The notes under the pieces: generated by a model
The model's input: the letters and a program-made list of their open reading frames with translations, nothing else
Databases searched by the model: none
What the model was told of the DNA's origin: nothing
Source: Eledone cirrhosa
Taxonomy: Eukaryota
NCBI GenBank assembly: GCA_964016885.1
Contig: OZ024750.1
Span: 14,384,001-14,448,000, forward strand
DNA: 64,000 nt
Reading direction: 5' to 3'
In this document: piece after piece, positions 20,236 through 44,135 of the stretch
How positions within the stretch are numbered: position 1 is the first letter of the stretch
How the letters are laid out: the number at the start of each line of letters is the position of its first letter
Made by a program: the position numbers and the translations under genes

Positions 20236-20445
20236 AGAAGTGAACTAACAGCCAAAGTGTATGATAAAGTTATATCTGCATAAATACAGAGTGTATAACC
20301 GAGACAGCACCAACATGTATAAATATATACACATATCTAATATATAGGCATGTAAACATACCAGAAAATACGAATTTCCCTGTAAATTGAAAACATATTA
20401 AACACCTTTAATCCATTTTCATATTTAATTGAACCCTCATAAGGT

Positions 20446-22599
20446 GTGTATATTGTATATAATAATAACTTACTAGAGGCGACGGATGAGGTTTGTGGCT
20501 GGAGTAAGACCTCAAGCAGGAGGAGAGTGACTTGGTGGTGGAACAATAAGGTAGATGAAGCAGTCAAGGCCAAGAGACAGGCATGGAAAGAATGGAAGAA
20601 CGGGGGGAGCAGGGTACATTACATAGAGACCAAGAGGGAAGCTAGGCGACAAGTATACTTAGCTAGGAGGGAAGCAGAGGATAGAAAATTCAAGCATGTT
20701 TTACAACGTGAGGACCAGAAACAGGAGGTATTCAAGATTGCGAGGCAGTGTGTCAGAGATAGTTGTGATGTCATTGGAGAGAAGTGTATCCGGAATGATA
20801 AAGGTGAGCTTGCCCTCACAAGTGCTGAGAAGAAAGATGCATGGAAGAGTCATTATGATAGATTACTAAATGAGGAGAATGCATGGGAAGAAGAGACCCT
20901 ACCCCACGTAGACCCTATAGAGGGACCAGCAGTACAACTCAGCGGCAGCGTAGTAAGTAAGGCAATCAGAGATATGAAGATAGGGAAGGCAACCGGTCCA
21001 TCGGGTATAGCTGCCGAGATGCTGAAGGCATCTGGGTCTGTAGGTCACACTATAACCACACGTATCGTTAACCAGGTAATACTAGAGGGGGCCATACCAA
21101 AAGATTGGTGCAGTAGCATCATTGTCAACTGCTACAAAGGTAAAGGCGATGCACTAGATAGAGGAAACTATAGAGGTATAAAGTTGATGGACCAGGTCAT
21201 GAAAGTAACAGAAAGAGTTATAGCACAGCTGATTAGGGACCGGGTGAATATAGACGAGATGCAATTTGGGTTTGTACCAGGGAAAGGCACCACTGATGCC
21301 CTCTTCCTTGTGAGGCAATTACAGGAAAAGTACCTAGCTAAAAGTAAGCCACTCTACTTGGCATTTGTCGACCTTGAGAAAGCCTTTGACAGAGTTCCAC
21401 GTGCAGTAATCTGGTGGGCTCTTAGAAAACTAGGAGTAGATGAATGGCTTGTGAAAGCGGTACAAGCCATGTATAGGGGAGCAGTCAGCAAAGTTAGGAT
21501 TGGCAATGAGTATAGCGAGGAATTTAGCGTACAGGTTGGGGTCCACCAGGGCTCTGTTCTTAGCCCTCTCCTGTTCATCATAGTCCTGCAGGCAATAACG
21601 GAGGAGTTTAAGACCGGATGCCCATGGGAACTCCTGTATGCTGATGACCTCGCACTCATAGCTGAATCTATGGTAGAACTAGAGAATAAATTCCAAACCT
21701 GGAAGCAGGGACTAGAGAGAAAGGGCCTCAAAGTCAACATGACAAAGACTAAGGTCCTTGTAAGTAGACGAGAAAACAGAACCCAGATCCCCTCAGGGAA
21801 ATGGCCTTGCTCAGTATGTAGGAAAGGTGTAGGTAGAAACTCCATTCTCTGCCCCAAATGCAAACAATGGGTACACAAGAGATGTAGCGGGATCTCAGGA
21901 AGCTTAATTAAGAATGTAGGATTCACATGCAGCAGCTGTGCTGAAACAGCAAGCAAACAGCCACAGGAAACAAGTACCACCAATCTCTGGGAGGGCCCTG
22001 TAGAAACAGTAGACAGCTTCTGCTACCTAGGTGACCGAATTAGCAACGGAGGTGGGTGCTCAGAAAGTACAATAACTAGGGTAAGAACGGGATGGAAGAA
22101 GTTTAGGGAACTACTACCACTGCTAGCTGCAAAAGGCTTCTCCCTCAGAATGAAAGGCAGACTGTATGATGCGTGTATCCGAACAGCGATGTTGCATGGT
22201 AGTGAGACCTGGGCGCTGAAGGTGGAAGACTTACGTAGATTAGAGAGAAACGAAGCCTGCATGCTCCGATGGATGTGTAACAGTAATATACGTGAACGAC
22301 AAAGCATAAAGGAATTGAGAGAGAGACTGAGCATAAGAGGAATCAAATGCTGCGTGCAGGAGAGGCGGTTACGCTGGTATGGACATGTGATGCGTATGAA
22401 GGATGACAGCTGCATAAAAAGGTGCAGAGCACTAGAAGTTGATGGAAACCGCGGAGTGGGGAGACCCAAGATGACTTGGGATGAGGTGATAAAAGCCGAC
22501 CTTACCCAACTACACCTCTCAAAGTCAATGACACACGACCGTGACTTCTGGCGTCACGCAGTAATACAGGGTACCCGACCTCCCATGGGTACATGCTGA
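20446..22599 (+). CDS. RTE reverse transcriptase ORF (partial) with internal PHD-type finger
   Basis: 717-aa ORF in the track; homology starts near NLLEATDEVCGWS; the annotated start codon is not authentic. Confidence 0.9.
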   Translation: MYIVYNNNLLEATDEVCGWSKTSSRRRVTWWWNNKVDEAVKAKRQAWKEWKNGGSRVHYIETKREARRQVYLARREAEDRKFKHVLQREDQKQEVFKIARQCVRDSCDVIGEKCIRNDKGELALTSAEKKDAWKSHYDRLLNEENAWEEETLPHVDPIEGPAVQLSGSVVSKAIRDMKIGKATGPSGIAAEMLKASGSVGHTITTRIVNQVILEGAIPKDWCSSIIVNCYKGKGDALDRGNYRGIKLMDQVMKVTERVIAQLIRDRVNIDEMQFGFVPGKGTTDALFLVRQLQEKYLAKSKPLYLAFVDLEKAFDRVPRAVIWWALRKLGVDEWLVKAVQAMYRGAVSKVRIGNEYSEEFSVQVGVHQGSVLSPLLFIIVLQAITEEFKTGCPWELLYADDLALIAESMVELENKFQTWKQGLERKGLKVNMTKTKVLVSRRENRTQIPSGKWPCSVCRKGVGRNSILCPKCKQWVHKRCSGISGSLIKNVGFTCSSCAETASKQPQETSTTNLWEGPVETVDSFCYLGDRISNGGGCSESTITRVRTGWKKFRELLPLLAAKGFSLRMKGRLYDACIRTAMLHGSETWALKVEDLRRLERNEACMLRWMCNSNIRERQSIKELRERLSIRGIKCCVQERRLRWYGHVMRMKDDSCIKRCRALEVDGNRGVGRPKMTWDEVIKADLTQLHLSKSMTHDRDFWRHAVIQGTRPPMGTC

Positions 22600-23274: not shown

Positions 23275-23343
23275 ATATATATTATTATACATATTTCAAA
23301 GGTACAATGGTGTTTAAGTACGTTTTCATCAGACAAAATATAT
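23275..23343 (-). ncRNA. Type I hammerhead ribozyme motif (slightly decayed)
   Basis: Minus strand reads atatattttgt CTGATGA aaacgtac-12 nt-gtaccttt GAAA TATGTA TA ataatatatat; all core residues are present and the stems pair. Confidence 0.65.
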
Positions 23344-26699: not shown

Positions 26700-29600
26700 A
26701 GTTTTTATTTGAGTAGACATTGTCAAACCAACATACCTACATACTGGTGTTGTGTGTGAACTCTTAACAGACATAGCCAACCAACATACCTACATACTGT
26801 GTTAGTGTGGTGTGGGAACTTAGTAGACATAGCCAACCCACATACCTACATACTGTGTTAGTGTGGGAACTTAGTAGACATAGCCAACCAACATACTGTG
26901 TTAGTGTGGTGTGGGAACTTAGTAGACATAGCCAACCCACATACCTACATACTGTGTTAGTGTGGGAACTTAGTAGACATAGCCAACCAACATACCTACA
27001 TACTGTGTTAGTGTGGGAACTTAGTAGACATAGCCAACCAACATACCTACATACTGTGTTAGTGTGGTGTGGAACTTAGTAGACATAGCCAACCCACATA
27101 CCTACATACTGTGTTAGTGTGGGAACTTAGTAGACATAGCCAACCAACATACCTACATACTGTGTTAGTGTGGGAACTTAGTAGACATAGCCAACCAACA
27201 TACCTACATACTGTGTTAGTGTGGTGTGGTGTGGAACTTAGTAGACATAGCCAACCCACATACCTACATACTGTGTTAGTGTGGGAACTTAGTAGACATA
27301 GCCAACCAACATACCTACATACTGTGTTAGTGTGGGAACTTAGTAGACATAGCCAACCTACATACCTACATACTGTGTTAGTGTGGTGTGGTGTGGAACT
27401 TAGTAGACATAGCCAACCAACATACCTACATACTGTGTTAGTGTGGTGTGGAACTTAGTAGACATAGCCAACCAACATACCTACATACTGTGTTAGTGTG
27501 GTGTGGAACTTAGTAGACATAGCCAACCAACATACCTACATACTGTGTTAGTGTGGTGTGGAACTTAGTAGACATAGCCAACCCACATACCTACATACTG
27601 TGTTAGTGTGGGAACTTAGTAGACATAGCCAACCAACATACCTACATACTGTGTTAGTGTGGTGTGGAACTTAGTAGACATAGCCAACCAACATACCTAC
27701 ATACTGTGTTAGTGTGGTGTGGAACTTGGTAGACATAGCCAACCCACATACCTACATACTGTGTTAGTGTGGGAACTTAGTAGACATAGCCAACCAACAT
27801 ACCTACATACTGTGTTAGTGTGGGAACTTAGTAGACATAGCCAACCAACATACCTACATACTGTGTTAGTGTGGGAACTTAGTAGACATAGCCAACCCAC
27901 ATACCTACATACTGTGTTAGTGTGGTGTGGTGTGGAACTTAGTAGACATAGCCAACCCACATACCTACATACTGTGTTAGTGTGGGAACTTAGTAGACAT
28001 AGCCAACCAACATACCTACATACTGTGTTAGTGTGGGAACTTAGTAGACATAGCCAACCTACATACCTACATACTGTGTTAGTGTGGTGTGGTGTGGAAC
28101 TTAGTAGACATAGCCAACCAACATACCTACATACTGTGTTAGTGTGGTGTGGAACTTAGTAGACATAGCCAACCAACATACCTACATACTGTGTTAGTGT
28201 GGTGTGGAACTTAGTAGACATAGCCAACCCACATACCTACATACTGTGTTAGTGTGGTGTGGAACTTAGTAGACATAGCCAACCAACATACCTACATACT
28301 GTGTTAGTGTGGTGTGGAACTTAGTAGACATAGCCAACCAACATACCTACATACTGTGTTAGTGTGGTGTGGAACTTGGTAGACATAGCCAACCCACATA
28401 CCTACATACTGTGTTAGTGTGGGAACTTAGTAGACATAGCCAACCAACATACCTACATACTGTGTTAGTGTGGGAACTTAGTAGACATAGCCAACCAACA
28501 TACCTACATACTGTGTTAGTGTGGTGTGGAACTTAGTAGACATAGCCAACCCACATACCTACATACTGTGTTAGTGTGGGAACTTAGTAGACATAGCCAA
28601 CCTACATACCTACATACTGTGTTAGTGTGGGAACTTAGTAGACATAGCCAACCAACATACCTACATACTGTGTTAGTGTGGGAACTTAGTAGACATAGCC
28701 AACCCACATACCTACATACTGTGTTAGTGAGGTGTGGAACTTAGTAGACATAGCCAACCTACATACCTACATACTGTGTTAGTGTGGGAACTTAGTAGAC
28801 ATAGCCAACCCACATACCTACATACTGTGTTAGTGTGGTGTGGAACTTAGTAGACATAGCCAACCAACATACCTACATACTGTGTTAGTGTGGTGTGGAA
28901 CTTAGTAGACATAGCCAACCCACATACCTACATACTGTGTTAGTGTGGTGTGGAACTTAGTAGACATAGCCAACCCACATACCTACATACTGTGTTAGTG
29001 TGGTGTGGAACTTAGTAGACATAGCCAACCAACATACCTACATACTGTGTTAGTGTGGTGTGGAACTTAGTAGACATAGCCAACCAACATACCTACATAC
29101 TGTGTTAGTGTGGTGTGGAACTTAGTAGACATAGCCAACCAACATACCTACATACTGTGTTAGTGTGGTGTGGGACTTAGTAGACATAGCCAACCCACAT
29201 ACCTACATACTGTGTTAGTGTGGGAACTTAGTAGACATAGCCAACCTACATACCTACATACTGTGTTAGTGTGGTGTGGAACTTAGTAGACATAGCCAAC
29301 CAACATACCTACATACTGTGTTAGTGTGGTGTGGAACTTAGTAGACATAGCCAACCAACATACCTACATACTGTGTTAGTGTGGTGTGGAACTTAGTAGA
29401 CATAGCCAACCAACATACCTACATACTGTGTTAGTGAGGTGTGGGACTTAGTAGACATAGCCAACCCACATACCTACATACTGTGTTAGTGTGGGAACTT
29501 AGTAGACATAGCCAACCTACATACCTACATACTGTGTTAGTGTGGTGTGGAACTTAGTAGACATAGCCAACCCACATACCTACATACTGTGTTAGTGTGG

Positions 29601-32600
29601 TGTGGAACTTAGTAGACATAGCCAACCCACATACCTACATACTGTGTTAGTGTGGTGTGGGACTTAGTAGACATAGCCAACCCACATACCTACATACTGT
29701 GTTAGTGTGGGAACTTAGTAGACATAGCCAACCTACATACCTACATACTGTGTTAGTGTGGTGTGGAACTTAGTAGACATAGCCAACCAACATACCTACA
29801 TACTGTGTTAGTGTGGTGTGGAACTTAGTAGACATAGCCAACCAACATACCTACATACTGTGTTAGTGAGGTGTGGGACTTAGTAGACATAGCCAACCCA
29901 CATACCTACATACTGTGTTAGTGTGGGAACTTAGTAGACATAGCCAACCTACATACCTACATACTGTGTTAGTGTGGTGTGGAACTTAGTAGACATAGCC
30001 AACCCACATACCTACATACTGTGTTAGTGTGGTGTGGGAACTTAGTAGACATAGCCAACCTACATACCTACATACTGTGTTAGTGTGGGAACTTAGTAGA
30101 CATAGCCAACCAACATACCTACATACTGTGTTAGTGTGGGAACTTAGTAGACATAGCCAACCAACATACCTACATACTGTGTTAGTGTGGTGTGGAACTT
30201 AGTAGACATAGCCAACCCACATACCTACATACTGTGTTAGTGTGGGGAACTTAGTAGACATAGCCAACCTACATACCTACATACTGTGTTAGTGTGGGAA
30301 CTTAGTAGACATAGCCAACCCACATACCTACATACTGTGTTAGTGTGGTGTGGAACTTAGTAGACATAGCCAACCAACATACCTACATACTGTGTTAGTG
30401 TGGTGTGGAACTTAGTAGACATAGCCAACCCACATACCTACATACTGTGTTAGTGTGGTGTGGAACTTAGTAGACATAGCCAACCCACATACCTACATAC
30501 TGTGTTAGTGTGGTGTGGAACTTAGTAGACATAGCCAACCAACATACCTACATACTGTGTTAGTGTGGTGTGGAACTTAGTAGACATAGCCAACCAACAT
30601 ACCTACATACTGTGTTAGTGTGGTGTGGAACTTAGTAGACATAGCCAACCAACATACCTACATACTGTGTTAGTGTGGTGTGGGACTTAGTAGACATAGC
30701 CAACCCACATACCTACATACTGTGTTAGTGTGGGAACTTAGTAGACATAGCCAACCTACATACCTACATACTGTGTTAGTGTGGTGTGGAACTTAGTAGA
30801 CATAGCCAACCAACATACCTACATACTGTGTTAGTGTGGTGTGGAACTTAGTAGACATAGCCAACCAACATACCTACATACTGTGTTAGTGTGGTGTGGA
30901 ACTTAGTAGACATAGCCAACCAACATACCTACATACTGTGTTAGTGAGGTGTGGGACTTAGTAGACATAGCCAACCCACATACCTACATACTGTGTTAGT
31001 GGTGGGAACTTAGTAGACATAGCCAACCTACATACCTACATACTGTGTTAGTGTGGTGTGGAACTTAGTAGACATAGCCAACCCACATACCTACATACTG
31101 TGTTAGTGTGGTGTGGAACTTAGTAGACATAGCCAACCCACATACCTACATACTGTGTTAGTGTGGTGTGGAACTTAGTAGACATAGCCAACCCACATAC
31201 CTACATACTGTGTTAGTGTGGTGTGGGACTTAGTAGACATAGCCAACCCACATACCTACATACTGTGTTAGTGTGGGAACTTAGTAGACATAGCCAACCT
31301 ACATACCTACATACTGTGTTAGTGTGGTGTGGAACTTAGTAGACATAGCCAACCCACATACCTACATACTGTGTTAGTGTGGTGTGGAACTTAGTAGACA
31401 TAGCCAACCAACATACCTACATACTGTGTTAGTGAGGTGTGGGACTTAGTAGACATAGCCAACCAACATACCTACATACTGTGTTAGTGTGGTGTGGAAC
31501 TTAGTAGACATAGCCAACCAACATACCTACATACTGTGTTAGTGAGGTGTGGGACTTAGTAGACATAGCCAACCCACATACCTACATACTGTGTTAGTGT
31601 GGTGTGGAACTTAGTAGACATAGCCAACCCACATACCTACATACTGTGTTAGTGTGGTGTGGGAACTTAGTAGACATAGCCAACCTACATACCTACATAC
31701 TGTGTTAGTGTGGGAACTTAGTAGACATAGCCAACCTACATACCTACATACTGTGTTAGTGTGGTGTGGAACTTAGTAGACATAGCCAACCCACATACCT
31801 ACATACTGTGTTAGTGTGGTGTGGGAACTTAGTAGACATAGCCAACCTACATACCTACATACTGTGTTAGTGTGGGAACTTAGTAGACATAGCCAACCAA
31901 CATACCTACATACTGTGTTAGTGTGGTGTGGGAACTTAGTAGACATAGCCAACCTACATACCTACATACTGTGTTAGTGTGGGAACTTAGTAGACATAGC
32001 CAACCAACATACCTACATACTGTGTTAGTGTGGTGTGGAACTTAGTAGACATAGCCAACCCACATACCTACATACTGTGTTAGTGTGGGAACTTAGTAGA
32101 CATAGCCAACCCACATACCTACATACTGTGTTAGTGTGGGAACTTAGTAGACATAGCCAACCCACATACCTACATACTGTGTTAGTGTGGTGTGGAACTT
32201 AGTAGACATAGCCAACCAACATACCTACATACTGTGTTAGTGTGGTGTGGAACTTAGTAGACATAGCCAACCAACATACCTACATACTGTGTTAGTGTGG
32301 TGTGGAACTTAGTAGACATAGCCAACCAACATACCTACATACTGTGTTAGTGTGGTGTGGAACTTAGTAGACATAGCCAACCACATACCTACATACTGTG
32401 TTAGTGTGGTGTGGAACTTAGTAGACATAGCCAACCAACATACCTACATACTGTGTTAGTGTGGTGTGGAACTTAGTAGACATAGCCAACCCACATACCT
32501 ACATACTGTGTTAGTGTGGTGTGGAACTTAGTAGACATAGCCAACCAACATACCTACATACTGTGTTAGTGTGGTGTGGAACTTAGTAGACATAGCCAAC

Positions 32601-33770
32601 CAACATACCTACATACTGTGTTAGTGTGGTGTGGAACTTAGTAGACATAGCCAACCCACATACCTACATACTGTGTTAGTGTGGTGTGGAACTTAGTAGA
32701 CATAGCCAACCCACATACCTACATACTGTGTTAGTGTGGTGTGGAACTTAGTAGACATAGCCACCCAACCTACATACTGTGTTAGTGTGGTGTGGAACTT
32801 AGTAGACATAGCCAACCCACATACCTACATACTGTGTTAGTGTGGGTGGAACTTAGTAGACATAGCCAACCCACATACCTACATACTGTGTTAGTGTGTG
32901 GGAACTTAGTAGACATAGCCAACCCACATACCTACATACTGTGTTAGTGTGGTGTGGAACTTAGTAGACATAGCCAACCAACATACCTACATACTGTGTT
33001 AGTGTGGGAACTTAGTAGACATAGCCAACCCACATACCTACATACTGTGTTAGTGTGGGAACTTAGTAGACATAGCCAACCCACATACCTACATACTGTG
33101 TTAGTGTGGTGTGGAACTTAGTAGACATAGCCAACCCACATACCTACATACTGTGTTAGTGTGGGAACTTAGTAGACATAGCCAACCCACATACCTACAT
33201 ACTGTGTTAGTGTGGTGGAACTTAGTAGACATAGCCAACCCACATACCTACATACTGTGTTAGTGTGTGTGAACTTAGTAGACATAGCCAACCCACATAC
33301 CTACATACTGTGTTAGTGTGGTGTGGAACTTAGTAGACATAGCCAACCCACATACCTACATATTGTGTTAGTGTGGTGTGGAACTTAGTAGACATAGCCA
33401 ACCCACATACCTACATACTGTGTTAGTGTGGTGTGGAACTTAGTAGACATAGCCAACCCACATACCTACATACTGTGTTAGTGTGGTGTGGAACTTAGTA
33501 GACATAGCCAACCCACATACCTACATATTGTGTTAGTGTGGTGTGGAACTTAGTAGACATAGCCAACCCACATACCTACATACTGTGTTAGTGTGGTGTG
33601 GAACTTAGTAGACATAGCCAACCCACATACCTACATACTGTGTTAGTGTGGTGTGGAACTTAGTAGACATAGCCAACCCACATACCTACATACTGTGTTA
33701 GTGTGGTGTGGAACTTAGTAGACATAGCCAACCCACATACCTACACACAGGTGTTGGTGTGTGAACTCTT
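26700..33770. repeat. ~7-kb satellite of 51/55-bp units (roughly 130 copies)
   Basis: ggaacttagtagacatagccaacc(a/c/t)acatacctacatactgtgttagtgtg(gtgt) repeated head to tail; degenerate copies continue to about 34100. Confidence 0.98.
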
Positions 33771-35493
33771 GATTACAGTCTACCCACATACCTACACACC
33801 CGTTGGTGTGTGGTCTGTAGTGTGTAGTCTTAATTACACTACCTACCCACATATACACATGTTGGCGTGTAAACTCTTGATTACATATCTCTACAGAAAT
33901 TGATGTGTAGTAGCTATCGATTACTCTACCTACACACATATCTCTCTCTACAGACAGATGTGTGTGAACTCTTCATTACACTACTTACCTACATACCAAT
34001 ACACAGGTGTGTGGTGAGTGTACTCTCTTGATTACACTCCCTGGCCACAAAACAGTGTCTCTCTCTACACACACATACAGGGATGTGTTGGTGTGTATGT
34101 GTATTGTTATATTGTACTCCAATGGTTAGAATATTGAATAGACGCACATAAAACATACGATTAAAAGAAAAATGGCCTCGGAAGGAATTCTTTATCGTTG
34201 TTTAGAAATCAGGTAAGTTATCGATGAAAAGAAAACAAGATTTTAATGGAATATAGATTTAAATAAAACTATATTTTCGTAAGAATAATATAACTACCAT
34301 AACCATTATGTCGTTCGTTCGGCATGTATTACTTCAGGGATTCTAATACTAAGTCTGACTATGATTCCATAAACAGCAGTGCCAGAATTGTCCCCTAATA
34401 CAAATATATGTAAATTTGGGGAGCTGTACTTGGGAGTTACTCAATATTTACACAACGTTCCACCCCTCCAAAAATCACCTCTGACTCAACACGTTTGGCC
34501 TGGTCCACCAGAAAGACATTTAACCCACTGACCTGACCTTTTTTGAAGAGTTTGTGTGTGAAAACCCCACGCACGTTAACGGAAATGTGTACGTGTAAAG
34601 AATGAAGGAGAAAATAAAGAAATACAATGAACCTTAAAACAAATAACGTCTAGTTATGAGTAATTTAAACAATTATTGCCTTGACAATAGTTAAAAAGTG
34701 GTCAACTTCGACAATTATTCTTTCTCTATCGAAAACTTTCAGCTTCTCTACTATTCACTCTTTACATTGATGTTTAAACATTAAACATGTCAAATATATA
34801 GGCATCTGTATATAGCCACACATACACATTACAAATAATATATATCATTTAATGCTCGGTGTTTACGTCTATCTTTCTCTTTCTTTTACTTTAAAATATT
34901 TATATCTTCCACCTATAATTACATAAACACTTTGAGCTTTGGACAAAATTAGTGGCATTTATATACTATCCTATATATATATAATATAATATATATATAT
35001 ATATATATATAAGTAGAAGGGATATTTAATTTGTTGGAAATTCAAATATAAATGTTTATAACTGATTCAGAGCACTCGATAAGTTCTGGAGTAAATATTC
35101 AATGATATTAAATAAATGGAAACTATATTTATAAAACCATATTTATTCTATTATATATATTTCAAGGGTACCAAAAACTTTGGTACGCTTTCCTTGGCTA
35201 TGTCAAAATTTATAAAACACTTTGTATTTTATCTGATGGGAGAAGGCGGGGGGAAAGGGGGGGGGGGGGAAGCGTACAAAGGAATAAATATGGTTTTATA
35301 AATATAATTTCCATTTATTTAATATTGTGCATGTATATATATATATATATATCGTTTGTGTTTATGTGTCAGTGTATGTGTATATATATATATATATATA
35401 CATATATATATCGTTTGTGTTTATGTGTCAGTGTATGTGTATATATATAAGGTGAAACAATTGTTCTCGGTATGGTGAACTATGTGTAACTAC

Positions 35494-40418: not shown

Positions 40419-40450
<32 letters not shown>
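39768..40450 (-). mobile_element. Probable non-autonomous Helitron
   Basis: Minus-strand 3' end has a GC-rich subterminal stretch then CTAG|T; the 5' end has (TA)n followed by ctgtctgtttgttt; internal ~70-bp duplication at about 40015 and 40175. Confidence 0.55.
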
Positions 40451-40600
40451 ATGAAAAATTGAACAGGGACAGAACAGAGAGGCAGTACGACAAATGTTTA
40501 TTAAATTCACGGTCAGGAGAGTGGGGGGTAGGTGGATATGTGTGTTGATTTAAAACTTCACTATTCACAAGTGTTTTTTAAGCTTCATATCATGTGTCCC

Positions 40601-40671
40601 TATTTTATCTGATGAGAACGCAGATATCAACCCATGATGATATTTGTTTTTGAAATGCGCATAATAAAATA
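40601..40671 (+). ncRNA. Minimal type I hammerhead ribozyme motif
   Basis: Stem I TATTTTAT/ATAAAATA (8 bp perfect), CTGATGA at 40609-15, 14-bp stem II, GAAA at 40652-55, palindromic TGCGCA stem III, AUA cleavage triplet. Confidence 0.8.
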
Positions 40672-40699
40672 CTTGGAACTCTTTTAACCATCTTTTGAT

Positions 40700-40768
<69 letters not shown>

Positions 40769-40772
<4 letters not shown>

Positions 40773-43761
40773 TCATCATCATCATCATCATCAGGTTTAG
40801 CGTCCGTGTTCCACGCTTGCATGGGTTTGGACGGGGGTTTTCCCACTTGAGGCAAGAGTGGTTGTCTTGCTCGCATAGGACTGTCTGGCGGGTTTTCTAC
40901 AGTTGGATGCCCTTCCTAACACCAACCACATTTACAGTGTGGGGCTGGGAGGTTTTTACCGTGTTGCCTACACGGCCACATTACAGCGTGGACTGTCTGG
41001 CGGGTTTTCTACAGCTGGATGCCCTTCCTAACACCAACCACATTTACAGTGTGGGGCTGGGAGGTTTTTACCGTGTTGCCTACACGGCCACATTTACAGC
41101 GTGGACTGTGTGTTTTTTGTCGTGACACCTACACGATCTCATTTGTTTCGGCCTGGATGTTGTGGGACCAACATAACTTTACATTGAAAGGGGCGGTGTG
41201 GGTGGGGTGGAGGGTGGTGGGACGGGGGGGTGTTTTGATAGAGATGCCTACTGACTGTAGTAGGTTTTTACTTTGTATTTAGGTAAGGCGGGTCTTCTCT
41301 ATTACTGAGTACCGCCAAAGGTCTCGGTCCAGTGACATTGTCTTGGAGAGGTGTAAGCGTGTGAGGTCGGAATTTATCAGCTCGTCCCATGTTTTTCTGG
41401 GTCTGCCTACTCCGTGGCTACCGTCTATCTTTATTGCCCTGCACTTTGTTATACAGCTGTCGTCTTTCATGCGCATCACGTGACCGTACCAACGTAGCCT
41501 TCTCTCGAGTAAACAACATCTGATCCCTCTTATTTCTAATTTTTTCCTTAGTTCGTTTATGCTTTGCCGTTCACGTATATTACTATTGCACATCCAGCGG
41601 AGCATGCAAGCTTCGTTCCTCTCTAGTCTGCGTATATCCTCTGCACACAATGCCCAGGTCTCACTGCCATGCAGCATTGCTGTTCGTATGCAGGCATCGT
41701 ATAACCTGCCTTTCATTTTTAGGGAGAACCCTCTAGCGGCTAATAGTGGTATAAGCTCTCTGAACTTTTTCCATCCAGTTCTGACTCTAGCTACTGTACT
41801 TTCAGAGCACCCTCCCCCACTGCTGATTTTGTCACCCAGATAACGGAAGCTGTCCACTATTTCTATAGAACCCTCTGCGCAGTTGAAGGAGCTAGTATTT
41901 TGTGGGCACTTGCTGCTACTTATTGCACCAGAGCACCGGCCACATGTAAAATCTATGTTCTTAGTTAGCTTACCTGTGATCCCACTACATCTTTTATGCA
42001 CCCATACTTTGCATTTGGGACATAAAATGGAGTTTCTACCTACGCCTTTCCTACACACTGAGCATGGCCATTTCCCCGATGGGACCGCCGCCTTATTTTC
42101 TTTCCTACAAACTAGAACTTTAGTCTTAGCCAGGTTAATTTTAAGGCCTTTTGATTCTAGGCCGTGCTTCCACGTTTGGAATTTCTTCTCTAGTTCGGTC
42201 ATTGATTCAGCTATGAGCGTTAGATCATCTGCGTATAGGAGTTCCCATGGGCAGCCGGTCTTGAACTCCTCTGTTATAGCCTGAAGGGCAATAATAAATA
42301 GTAGGGGGCTAAGAACAGAGCCCTGATGGACACCAACTTTTACGCTAAACTCTTCACTATATTCGTTGTTAATTCTAACCTTACTGACTGTTTCTTTATA
42401 CATGGCTTGTATAGCTCTCACAAGCCATTCGTCAACACCTAGTTTTCTAAGAGACCACCAGATAATGGAACGGGGGACTCTGTCGAAGGCTTTCTCCAAG
42501 TCGACGAAAGCTAAGTATAGGGGTTTACTTTTAGCTAGGTACTTCTCCTGTAGTTGTCGTACAATGAAAAGAGCGTCTGTGGTACTTTTGCCTGACACAA
42601 ACCCGAACTGCATTTCATCTAGATCAATTCTCTCTCTGATTAGTTGCGCTATTACTTTTTCCGTGACCTTCATGACCTGGTCGATTAATTTAATGCCTCT
42701 ATAGTTACTCCTATCTAGGGCATCTCCTTTTCCCTTATAGCAGTTAACGATGATGCTGCTACGCCATTCCTTCGGAACAACCCCATTCTGTACGACTTGG
42801 TTAACTATCCGGGTGACCATGGTGTGTCCCACCGAACCAGATGCCTTCAGCATCTCAGCAACTATTTCCGAAGGCCCAGCCGCCTTACCCGTCTTCATAT
42901 CTTTGATTGCCTTACTTATTATACTACCTTCAACTAACACTGCTGGTCCCTCTATTGGATCGATCTGGGGGAGACTGTCTTTCTCCCATTTGTTCTCCTC
43001 ATTTAGAAGCCTTTCGTAGTGACACTTCCAAGCTACCTTCTTATCAGCGTCGGTGATGGCAAGTATGCCATCATCGTTAAGTACACACTTCTCCCCGACA
43101 ATATCACGGTTTTCCTTGACACATTGCCTGGCAATCCTGAACACCTCACGTTTTTGGTCCTCACGTTGTAGAACATGCTTGAACTTTCTTTCCTCTGCTT
43201 CCCTTCTTGCGAAGTACACTTGTCTCCTAGCTTCCCTCCTGGCCACTTGATAGTCTTCTCTACTTCCCCCATCCCGCCATACTTTCCAAGCCTGCTTTTT
43301 GGCCTTAATTGACTCCTCCACCTTACTGTTCCACCACCATGTTACTCTCCTCCTACCTACAGGCCTGCTCCAGCCACAGACTTCGTCTGCCGCCGTCAGC
43401 AGGTTTGCTCTCAGGAATTCCCACTGTTCCTCTATATTATACGACTCTAATTGCTCTTCCTTACTGTCGAAAGCGTCAAGTAATATGCTTTGGAATTTAT
43501 TTCTGGCTATGGGGTCCTTTAGCTTCCATATTTTTCTCCTGAGGATAGTCCTCTTCCGCTGTCTAGTACGTCTCGTCCTGACTATGAGGTCGCTAATTAT
43601 CAGTCTATGTTGGGAGGTGAATTCTTCATGGGGGTGGGATTTAGTGTTAACAACAGACACTCTGTCACGTCTTCTGGTAAGGATATAATCTACCTGGCTT
43701 GTGTGTTCCCCCGATCTATAGGTGATCAAGTGATTGTCTCGTTTTTTGAAGTTAGTGTTAC

Positions 43762-43765
<4 letters not shown>
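40769..43765 (-). mobile_element. RTE-clade LINE, 5'-truncated within the APE endonuclease
   Basis: APE C-terminus (CNTNFKK..ITYRSG...SQVDYIL...SQHRLI), full RT with YADD, 3'UTR and (GAT)n tail; (TA)n on both sides. Confidence 0.95.
41279..43765 (-). CDS. RTE ORF2 (partial APE + RT + PHD-type finger)
   Basis: Part of the 846-aa ORF in the track; the N-terminal IYIY run is translated microsatellite. Confidence 0.9.
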
Positions 43766-43809
<44 letters not shown>

Positions 43810-43811
<2 letters not shown>

Positions 43812-44135
43812 AGGCACATGGCTTAGTGGTTAGAGCATTGGCCTTGCAATCGAAAGGTTGTGAGTTCAATTCTCAGACCGGGTGATGTGTTGTTTCCTTG
43901 AGCAAGAGACTTTATTTCGCATTGCTCCAGTTTACTCAGCTGTAGAAATGAGATGATAGGGACTGGGGTCCCTATCATTCCACTGCAAAGTGGTCGTGGA
44001 GGTGCCATGGCAAAAAAGCACCCAGCACTCACTGTAAATGAGGTTGGTGTTAGGAAGGGCATCCAGCTGTAGAAATCAAGCCAGAATCAGTTACCGTCCC
44101 ACCCTTGCACGCAGGGAAAAGCGGACATAAAATGA
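43810..44135 (+). mobile_element. tRNA-derived SINE with RTE-derived 3' tail
   Basis: A box TGGCTTAGTGG, B box GAGTTCAATTC, core ccttgagcaagagactttatttc...ctcagctg; tail near-identical to the RTE 3'UTR at about 22640-22790. Confidence 0.9.

What the first reader, a model, noticed from the sequence alone, without database searches (positions are those of the whole stretch)
40601..40671. Complete minimal type I hammerhead ribozyme
Seen: TATTTTAT-CTGATGA-GAACGCAGATATCA-(8-nt loop)-TGATATTTGTTTTT-GAAA-TGCGCA-TA-ATAAAATA. Stem I is 8 of 8 Watson-Crick pairs, stem II pairs at 13 of 14 positions including G-U, all catalytic core nucleotides are present, and stem III is reduced to a palindrome (GCGC loop). 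Established: this is the architecture of Penelope/retrozyme-type minimal hammerheads, thought to cleave as dimers through the palindrome. Predicted cut after A40663 (AUA). It is invisible to the ORF track.
Basis: partly seen in the sequence, partly recalled or inferred. Interest (0 to 1): 0.85.

Follow-up and report, generated by a model that had tools for sequence, protein, structure and literature searches.

The report
Hammerhead ribozyme of a Penelope retroelement
This is a hammerhead-shaped, predicted self-cutting RNA motif carried by a Penelope-like jumping gene of a known clade; it is one of about 34,000 related copies in this genome, so it is a known kind of element and not a one-off host feature.

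Summary
The motif is there exactly as described and is not chance: 0 of 200 window shuffles gave a comparable hit. It lies in a 159-bp stub (40543-40701) of a Penelope-like retroelement inserted in (TA)n. Longer copies run upstream into a reverse transcriptase plus endonuclease ORF with the motifs of the Hydra clade. A pattern for this hammerhead lineage matches 34,158 times genome-wide, control 0. Across 18 representatives both stems covary, and the stem III insert stays self-complementary even at its two adjacent central bases, which fits dimer pairing. Rfam gives no hammerhead hit, and cleavage was not testable. In 77 position-ordered copies, 3' ends fall at two sites downstream of the cut (75 of 77) and 5' ends cluster about 124 nt upstream (24 of 77), not at the cut (2 of 77). 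The stub is therefore likely a cDNA copy of the uncleaved RNA leader, from transcription start to the first internal priming site. It is a solo copy, not a tandem retrozyme. Verdict: new member of a known kind.

The parts
40601..40671 (+). Type I hammerhead motif (whole)
40601..40608 (+). Stem I, 5' strand (pairs with 40664-40671)
   Evidence: 97.9% of cells paired in 18 representatives
40609..40615 (+). Catalytic core box CUGAUGA
   Evidence: invariant apart from position 7 in alignment A1, (the selection pattern required it)
40616..40651 (+). Stem II, 13 bp, closing pair G-U, C-pyrimidine mismatch at 40619/40648, 8-nt loop
   Evidence: 12 of 13 pairs with two-sided change; C19 invariant
40652..40655 (+). 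Core box GAAA
40655..40662 (+). 8-nt self-complementary stem III (predicted intermolecular helix)
   Evidence: intramolecular pair probability 0.001, self-duplex -10.5 kcal/mol; central pairs covary
40663..40663 (+). Predicted cleavage nucleotide (H17 of AUA); cut 3' of it
   Evidence: position by hammerhead numbering; cleavage not tested
40663..40668 (+). AATAAA hexamer spanning the predicted cut and stem I 3' strand
   Evidence: present in 16 of 18 representatives, partly by selection of the pattern
40543..40701 (+). Solo pseudo-LTR stub of a Hydra-clade Penelope-like element, from the 5' hotspot (about 40540) to 3' end site 1
   Evidence: mean 96.4% identity to 58 copies, 2 differences from the column majority
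40702..40770 (.). (TA)n microsatellite target at the 3' junction
40451..40536 (-). 3' stub of a different hammerhead-bearing repeat family, head to head with the element; lacks its own hammerhead here
40423..40450 (.). (TA)n at the end of the neighbouring stub

Best explanation
The motif is a type I hammerhead in the terminal repeat of a Hydra-clade Penelope-like retrotransposon, and this copy is a 159-bp solo stub, likely reverse-transcribed from the uncleaved 5' leader of the element's RNA. Shown: the motif, its family, the link to an RT-endonuclease ORF, the (TA)n target, the covariation and the end positions of copies. Inferred: transcription starts about 124 nt upstream of the cut; the element's protein nicks (TA)n and primes internally at about +38 or about +134; copying back to the RNA start gives the 160-bp and 258-bp stubs. 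Predicted: the hammerhead is inactive as a naked monomer and cuts slowly after A40663 only when two copies pair through the 8-nt palindrome or the element protein refolds it. It would process tandem or read-through transcripts but is not needed for insertion. This genomic copy is most likely a passive passenger.
For: 19 of 20 loci found with an endonuclease-end query hold the full 159-bp element about 1.1 kb downstream, the 20th a 5' part of it. The ORF carries LRW(I), DKT, YRDDG, CxCx5C, CxxC-EK and CxH, matching the Hydra clade description (PMC8557442 section 11); 60 relatives at E<=0.001, about 31-44% identical. Covariation: 18 pairs with two-sided change, 0 of 500 shuffles as high, slid controls 33-54% paired against 89%; RNAalifold finds stems I and II unaided. 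Sister hammerhead families lie downstream of endonucleases only 33-49% identical. The cofold minimum is the strand-swapped dimer, -33.5 kcal/mol against 2 x -11.3. 3' ends: 46 of 77 at +41..+52 and 29 of 77 at +127..+136, like the two internal priming sites of the anole element (PMC11167929). 5' ends: 24 of 77 at -119..-126, 0 at -129..-150; families B and C cluster at -131..-116 (9 of 17) and -126..-106 (7 of 23), C with TATAAA 31 nt before a TCA initiator. That paper found protein-dependent cleavage and no need of cleavage for insertion.
Against: No Rfam hammerhead hit even at E<=10. The 10.1-11.1 pair is G-U here and G-C in only 3 of 18, whereas PMC4209133 calls G-C highly conserved. In the 163-nt context stem I has about zero probability and the active fold costs 7.2 kcal/mol; 2.1-8.2 in six other contexts. 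Only 1 of 39 ORF-start copies ends at -124 while 16 run further upstream (p 0.008 against the stub set), so one start site does not explain tandem copies. No pile-up of 5' ends at the cut (2 of 77, p 0.36). The 18 representatives are related, and most were picked with a pattern fixing core and stem I. One of the 24 hotspot rows (L222) is an alignment artefact, and two inverted pairs count twice.
Confidence: 0.82

Rival explanations
1. The palindrome mainly clamps two terminal repeats (of one RNA or two) together so that the element protein primes on both target strands, one at each internal site; cleavage is secondary.
For: In head-to-head insertions, 23 of 24 unique classifiable pairs have one arm ending at site 1 and the other at site 2 (p 5e-7 against independence). 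In 14 of the 23 both arms copy the same template stretch, which needs two repeats or re-copying. Central palindrome pairs are kept in 18 of 18 with three pair types. The dimer is favoured.
Against: A tail at one end only is already described for Penelope-like elements generally (PMC8557442 Fig. 2 legend), and hammerhead-less Naiad elements share the tandem and inverted structures. A protein dimer is the published model. 9 of 23 pairs fit twin priming on one RNA. The whole catalytic core is conserved, which a clamp alone would not need. 44 of 77 rows had no partner within reach.
Confidence: 0.2
2. Stem I doubles as a polyadenylation switch: it hides an AAUAAA whose first A is the cleavage nucleotide, so folding or cutting decides between a polyadenylated mRNA and read-through RNA that keeps the priming sites.
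For: AATAAA at 40663-40668, with CA 21 nt later and a U-rich tract. Stem I sequence is nearly fixed across families whose stem II has turned over, including families B, C and E, first met without selecting on stem I.
Against: Family D has AATGAA and family F none. By eye only about 3 of 26 published Hydra-clade hammerheads have AATAAA or ATTAAA next to the cut. The genome is AT-rich. None of 77 copies ends in poly(A).
Confidence: 0.12
3. It is a non-LTR retrozyme that self-cleaves from tandem units into circular RNA.
For: Type I topology and small size. A different family beside it forms a 415-bp tandem array with a hammerhead core in 16 listed units.
Against: This copy is solo. No head-to-tail unit array of this family turned up among the 77 copies. 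The sequence is the end of an autonomous ORF-bearing element. Retrozymes are defined by tandem units (bioRxiv 2026.07.22.740005).
Confidence: 0.05
4. It is a catalytically dead or chance look-alike in AT-rich sequence.
For: Energy z only -1.42. No Rfam hit. Competing fold in context.
Against: 0 of 200 shuffles; 34,158 matches against 0 control; covariation; full core in 52 of 62 copies sampled by a flank outside the core.
Confidence: 0.06

Closest known systems
Hydra-clade Penelope-like elements and their hammerheads, e.g. Hydra-1_Obim, Hydra-1_Amil (Craig et al. 2021, PMC8557442)
   Same: C-terminal endonuclease with CxCx5C linker, CxxC and CxH, DKT, RW motif, (TA)n target, 3' type I hammerhead with a short palindromic stem III. 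The ORF start resembles Hydra-1_Obim by eye.
   Different: A separate family. Its hammerhead matches none of the 26 Hydra rows by eye, stem II is 13 bp, RWK reads RWI, the 3' UTR is about 1.1 kb and the unit about 3.7 kb against under 3 kb.
Metazoan Penelope minimal hammerheads (Cervera and de la Pena 2014, PMC4209133)
   Same: Type I, long helix II, palindromic positions 15.2-16.2 and loop 3, mostly solo copies from truncated elements, dimer-dependent low activity reported.
   Different: Keeps a 6-nt stem III insert and lacks the G10.1-C11.1 pair. About 34,000 pattern matches here against about 9,000 for the richest genome named in the passages read.
PAc (Poseidon) of the green anole (Frangieh et al. 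2024, PMC11167929)
   Same: Two internal priming sites downstream of the hammerhead that define a tail, AT-rich target, templates copied through the uncut ribozyme.
   Different: Different clade. There the hammerhead overlaps the start codon and the tail is 30-40 nt; here the cut is 212 nt before the ATG and the tail about 95 nt.
Non-LTR retrozymes (definition read in bioRxiv 2026.07.22.740005)
   Same: Type I hammerhead of Penelope origin in a short non-coding unit.
   Different: No tandem units; solo stub of an autonomous element.

Membership tests
Type I hammerhead ribozyme | CUGANGA, GAAA and NUH core around three helices, open at helix I | tested here: met
Type I hammerhead ribozyme | Helices I and II supported by covariation | tested here: met
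   sequences related and partly selected on stem I
Type I hammerhead ribozyme | G10.1-C11.1 closing pair of helix II (typical, not absolute) | tested here: not met
   A-U 9, G-U 6, G-C 3 of 18
Type I hammerhead ribozyme | Site-specific self-cleavage | not testable with these tools
   no assay; copy ends give no sign of it
Rfam hammerhead models | Score at gathering threshold or E<=10 | tested here: not met
Penelope-type dimeric hammerhead | Short palindromic helix III, unstable in the monomer | tested here: met
   (computed only)
Penelope-like element | Single ORF with RT and C-terminal GIY-YIG-type endonuclease upstream of the repeat | tested here: met
   by motifs and homology, Pfam itself gave no hit; copies examined are broken by stops or frameshifts
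Penelope-like element | Partial tandems forming pseudo-LTRs, inverted 5'-truncated partner, tail at one end | tested here: met
Hydra clade | CxCx5C linker, CxxC and CxH around conserved E and N, DKT | tested here: met
Hydra clade | RWK motif and length under 3 kb | tested here: inconclusive
   RWI; unit about 3.7 kb owing to a long 3' UTR
Hydra clade | (TA)n insertion preference | tested here: met
Hydra clade | Placement in an RT phylogeny with reference clades | not tested
   reference proteins were not held as usable sequences
Non-LTR retrozyme | Head-to-tail tandem units each with a hammerhead | tested here: not met
   solo copy; none among 77 copies

The most novel reading that the evidence does not exclude
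The Penelope hammerhead is less a cutter than an RNA clamp and switch: its palindrome joins two terminal repeats so that the element protein primes one cDNA at each internal site on opposite target strands (one arm per site in 23 of 24 inverted pairs), while stem I hides a poly(A) signal that starts at the cleavage nucleotide. With tens of thousands of young copies whose ends can be read, this genome would make the open question of what these ribozymes are for directly testable.
Probability: 0.2. Interest if true: 0.65.

Novelty: new member of a known kind. Interest (0 to 1): 0.3.

Why it matters
Hammerheads in Penelope repeats are published, including for this clade, so the locus itself is ordinary. 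The modest value lies in scale and readability. About one such motif per 88 kb, in many families with covarying stems, gives a natural mutational series. The ends of the copies mark a likely start site and two priming sites in vivo and show copying through the uncut ribozyme, extending to a second clade what was shown in vitro for one element. The function of these ribozymes is stated as unclear in PMC8557442.

Tried and rejected
Rfam scans of the whole window, 2 kb and 101 bp: no hammerhead family. Pfam on two ORF pieces: no family at E<=1. Expression: no RNA holder listed. The four runs are contigs of unrecorded type from one study; they run into (TA)n like genomic copies and cannot show RNA ends, so no claim on expression is made. 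In vivo cleavage read from DNA: 2 of 77 copies start within 3 nt of the cut (L199, L206; in L206 both arms do), not above background. The cassette 40451-40701 as one unit: rejected, two families. An intron boundary at -124: rejected by eye, the preceding bases are CAT, not CAG. TA microhomology as sole cause of the -124 cluster: disfavoured, since three other ATAT sites between -124 and the cut draw 0 to a few ends each. Earlier scan findings: nothing by sequence or words. Lunse et al. 2017 on dimer cleavage is not held and is cited only through a review. Literature searches for a poly(A)-signal overlap (1 paper) and for RNA dimerization with target priming (8 listed) showed no such claim in listings or passages read; subscription papers and bioRxiv supplements are outside the library. 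The host organism was not determined.

Full report
Observation. The core pattern alone is within chance (6 against 2.9) and the fold energy is ordinary (z -1.42). A descriptor requiring core and stems found this site and one more in the window, and none in 200 shuffles. Rfam lists no hammerhead family here at any setting tried.

It is a repeat. A search of the own genome (G000, 3.0 Gb, unnamed) with 40451-40701 gave 1,233 candidates, 40 scored; apart from self they match only the last 160-166 bases, at 95-99%. Exact patterns count 2,340 copies of this subfamily's 3' flank, 21,234 of the family and 34,158 of the wider lineage, each with 0 for the reversed control. The window copy differs from the column majority at 2 of 159 positions, neither in core or stems. 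The first 86 bases of the proposed cassette belong to another family in the opposite orientation.

The parent element. Five of the first 30 loci share upstream sequence, which leads into an endonuclease C-terminus. Searching with that end gave 20 loci: 19 hold the full element about 1.1 kb after the ORF and one a part of it. The ORF pieces carry LRWI, DKT, YRDDG, CxCx5C, CxxC before EK, and CxH. These match the Hydra clade of Penelope-like elements as described in PMC8557442 (section 11; I also read section 12, search passages and supplement parts 1, 2, 52, 53). That clade inserts in (TA)n and carries 3' hammerheads. Sixty database proteins match at E<=0.001; the four printed share these motifs, and one aligns at 40% over the endonuclease. 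Pfam has no hit and no tree was built. In partial tandems the hammerhead lies 212 nt before the ATG.

Selection on the structure. Loci in hand gave 140 hammerheads in 13 clusters. Some sister families lie downstream of endonucleases only 33-49% identical to this one. I aligned 18 representatives. Of 25 named pairs, 18 show two-sided change, 89% of cells pair, no shuffle of 500 reaches this, and slid controls pair at 33-54%. RNAalifold recovers stems I and II unaided. The two adjacent central bases of the palindrome stay complementary in 18 of 18 (U-A 8, C-G 6, U-G 4). They cannot pair within one strand, which fits pairing between two copies; the caveat is that only C-A is excluded in a pyrimidine-purine step and the lineages are few. 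The model gives stem III a probability of 0.001 in the monomer, and the cofold minimum is the strand-swapped dimer. Against: the helix II closing pair is G-C in only 3 of 18, a C-pyrimidine mismatch is fixed at its fourth position, and in the 163-nt context a leader segment competes for stem I by about 7 kcal/mol. PMC4209133 (parts 1-2 of 4 read) reports no monomer and low dimer activity for such motifs.

What the copy ends say. I took the first 77 of the 2,340 flank matches, all on contig C1. 3' ends: 46 at +41..+52 (the true junction is blurred by TA homology from +38), 29 at +127..+136, 2 elsewhere. 5' ends: 24 at -119..-126, none at -129..-150, 2 within 3 nt of the cut. The core is intact in 52 of the 62 that cover it. 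One hotspot row is an alignment artefact and two inverted pairs count twice. Families B and C have their own 5' clusters at a similar distance, C exactly 31 nt after a TATAAA. I read the cluster as a transcription start in the repeat, as shown for Drosophila Penelope (PMC2377424, passages). I read the two 3' sites as internal priming sites, as shown in vitro for the anole element (PMC11167929, parts 1-2 of 4). The window copy spans -121 to +38, the commonest single class (17 of 77 by the script). It was likely copied from an RNA that had not been cut. A result against the simple picture: among 39 copies that hold the ORF start, only 1 ends at -124 and 16 run further, so tandems arise from longer RNAs or two steps.

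Two further leads. In head-to-head insertions, 23 of 24 unique classifiable pairs have one arm from each 3' site (33 rows had a partner, 5 were duplicates, 4 rows with an unclassified end were dropped, 44 had none in reach). A one-sided tail is already described, so the rule is not new, but a role for the palindrome in pairing the templates is open. Also, the cleavage nucleotide begins an AATAAA; this is not general in the clade's published table (about 3 of 26 by eye).

Verdict. The motif is real, correctly drawn and correctly linked to Penelope elements. It works like a dimer- or protein-assisted type I hammerhead (predicted, untested), and it belongs to a new family of a known clade. It is not a tandem retrozyme (definition from bioRxiv 2026.07.22.740005, part 1 of 5) and not unique. 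Interest 0.3.

Noticed in passing
window 23278-23340 (-): Second hammerhead of a sister family (core intact, one stem I mismatch, near-palindrome with G-U), in a short stub beside (TA)n.
   Followed up: partly
window 35144-35200 (-): Third, broken hammerhead of another sister family, 5' core and stem I lost.
   Followed up: partly
L146 (G000:C8:31391500-31399500): Array of about 415-bp units, 17 seen, 16 listed with a hammerhead core and 4-bp stem II but a doubtful 2-bp stem I; retrozyme-like. Its 3' end is the family of window 40451-40536.
   Followed up: partly
L142, L144, L145 and window 40451-40536: Solo stubs of that second family begin about 4 nt after its predicted cut, in several places; the query selected for this boundary, so an unbiased count is needed.
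   Followed up: no
alignment A1, columns 19 and 48 (window 40619/40648): An invariant C opposite a pyrimidine interrupts stem II three pairs from the core in all 18 representatives; possible tertiary or protein contact.
   Followed up: no
L101:1499-1564, L064:6379-6441: Families B and E extend stem I with a distal helix beyond an internal loop, whereas in the window's subfamily the leader competes with stem I.
   Followed up: partly
window 41279-43822 (-) and 20443-22599 (+): Two long ORFs with RVT_1 followed by a PHD finger, a LINE-type element; the first has its 3' end next to the hammerhead stub.
   Followed up: no
window 26887-33761: 55-bp minisatellite, about 127 copies at 94% match.
   Followed up: no
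L206 (G000:C1:70046500-70048100): Inverted insertion whose two arms both begin exactly at the predicted cut; a single case that would fit a cleaved template.
   Followed up: partly
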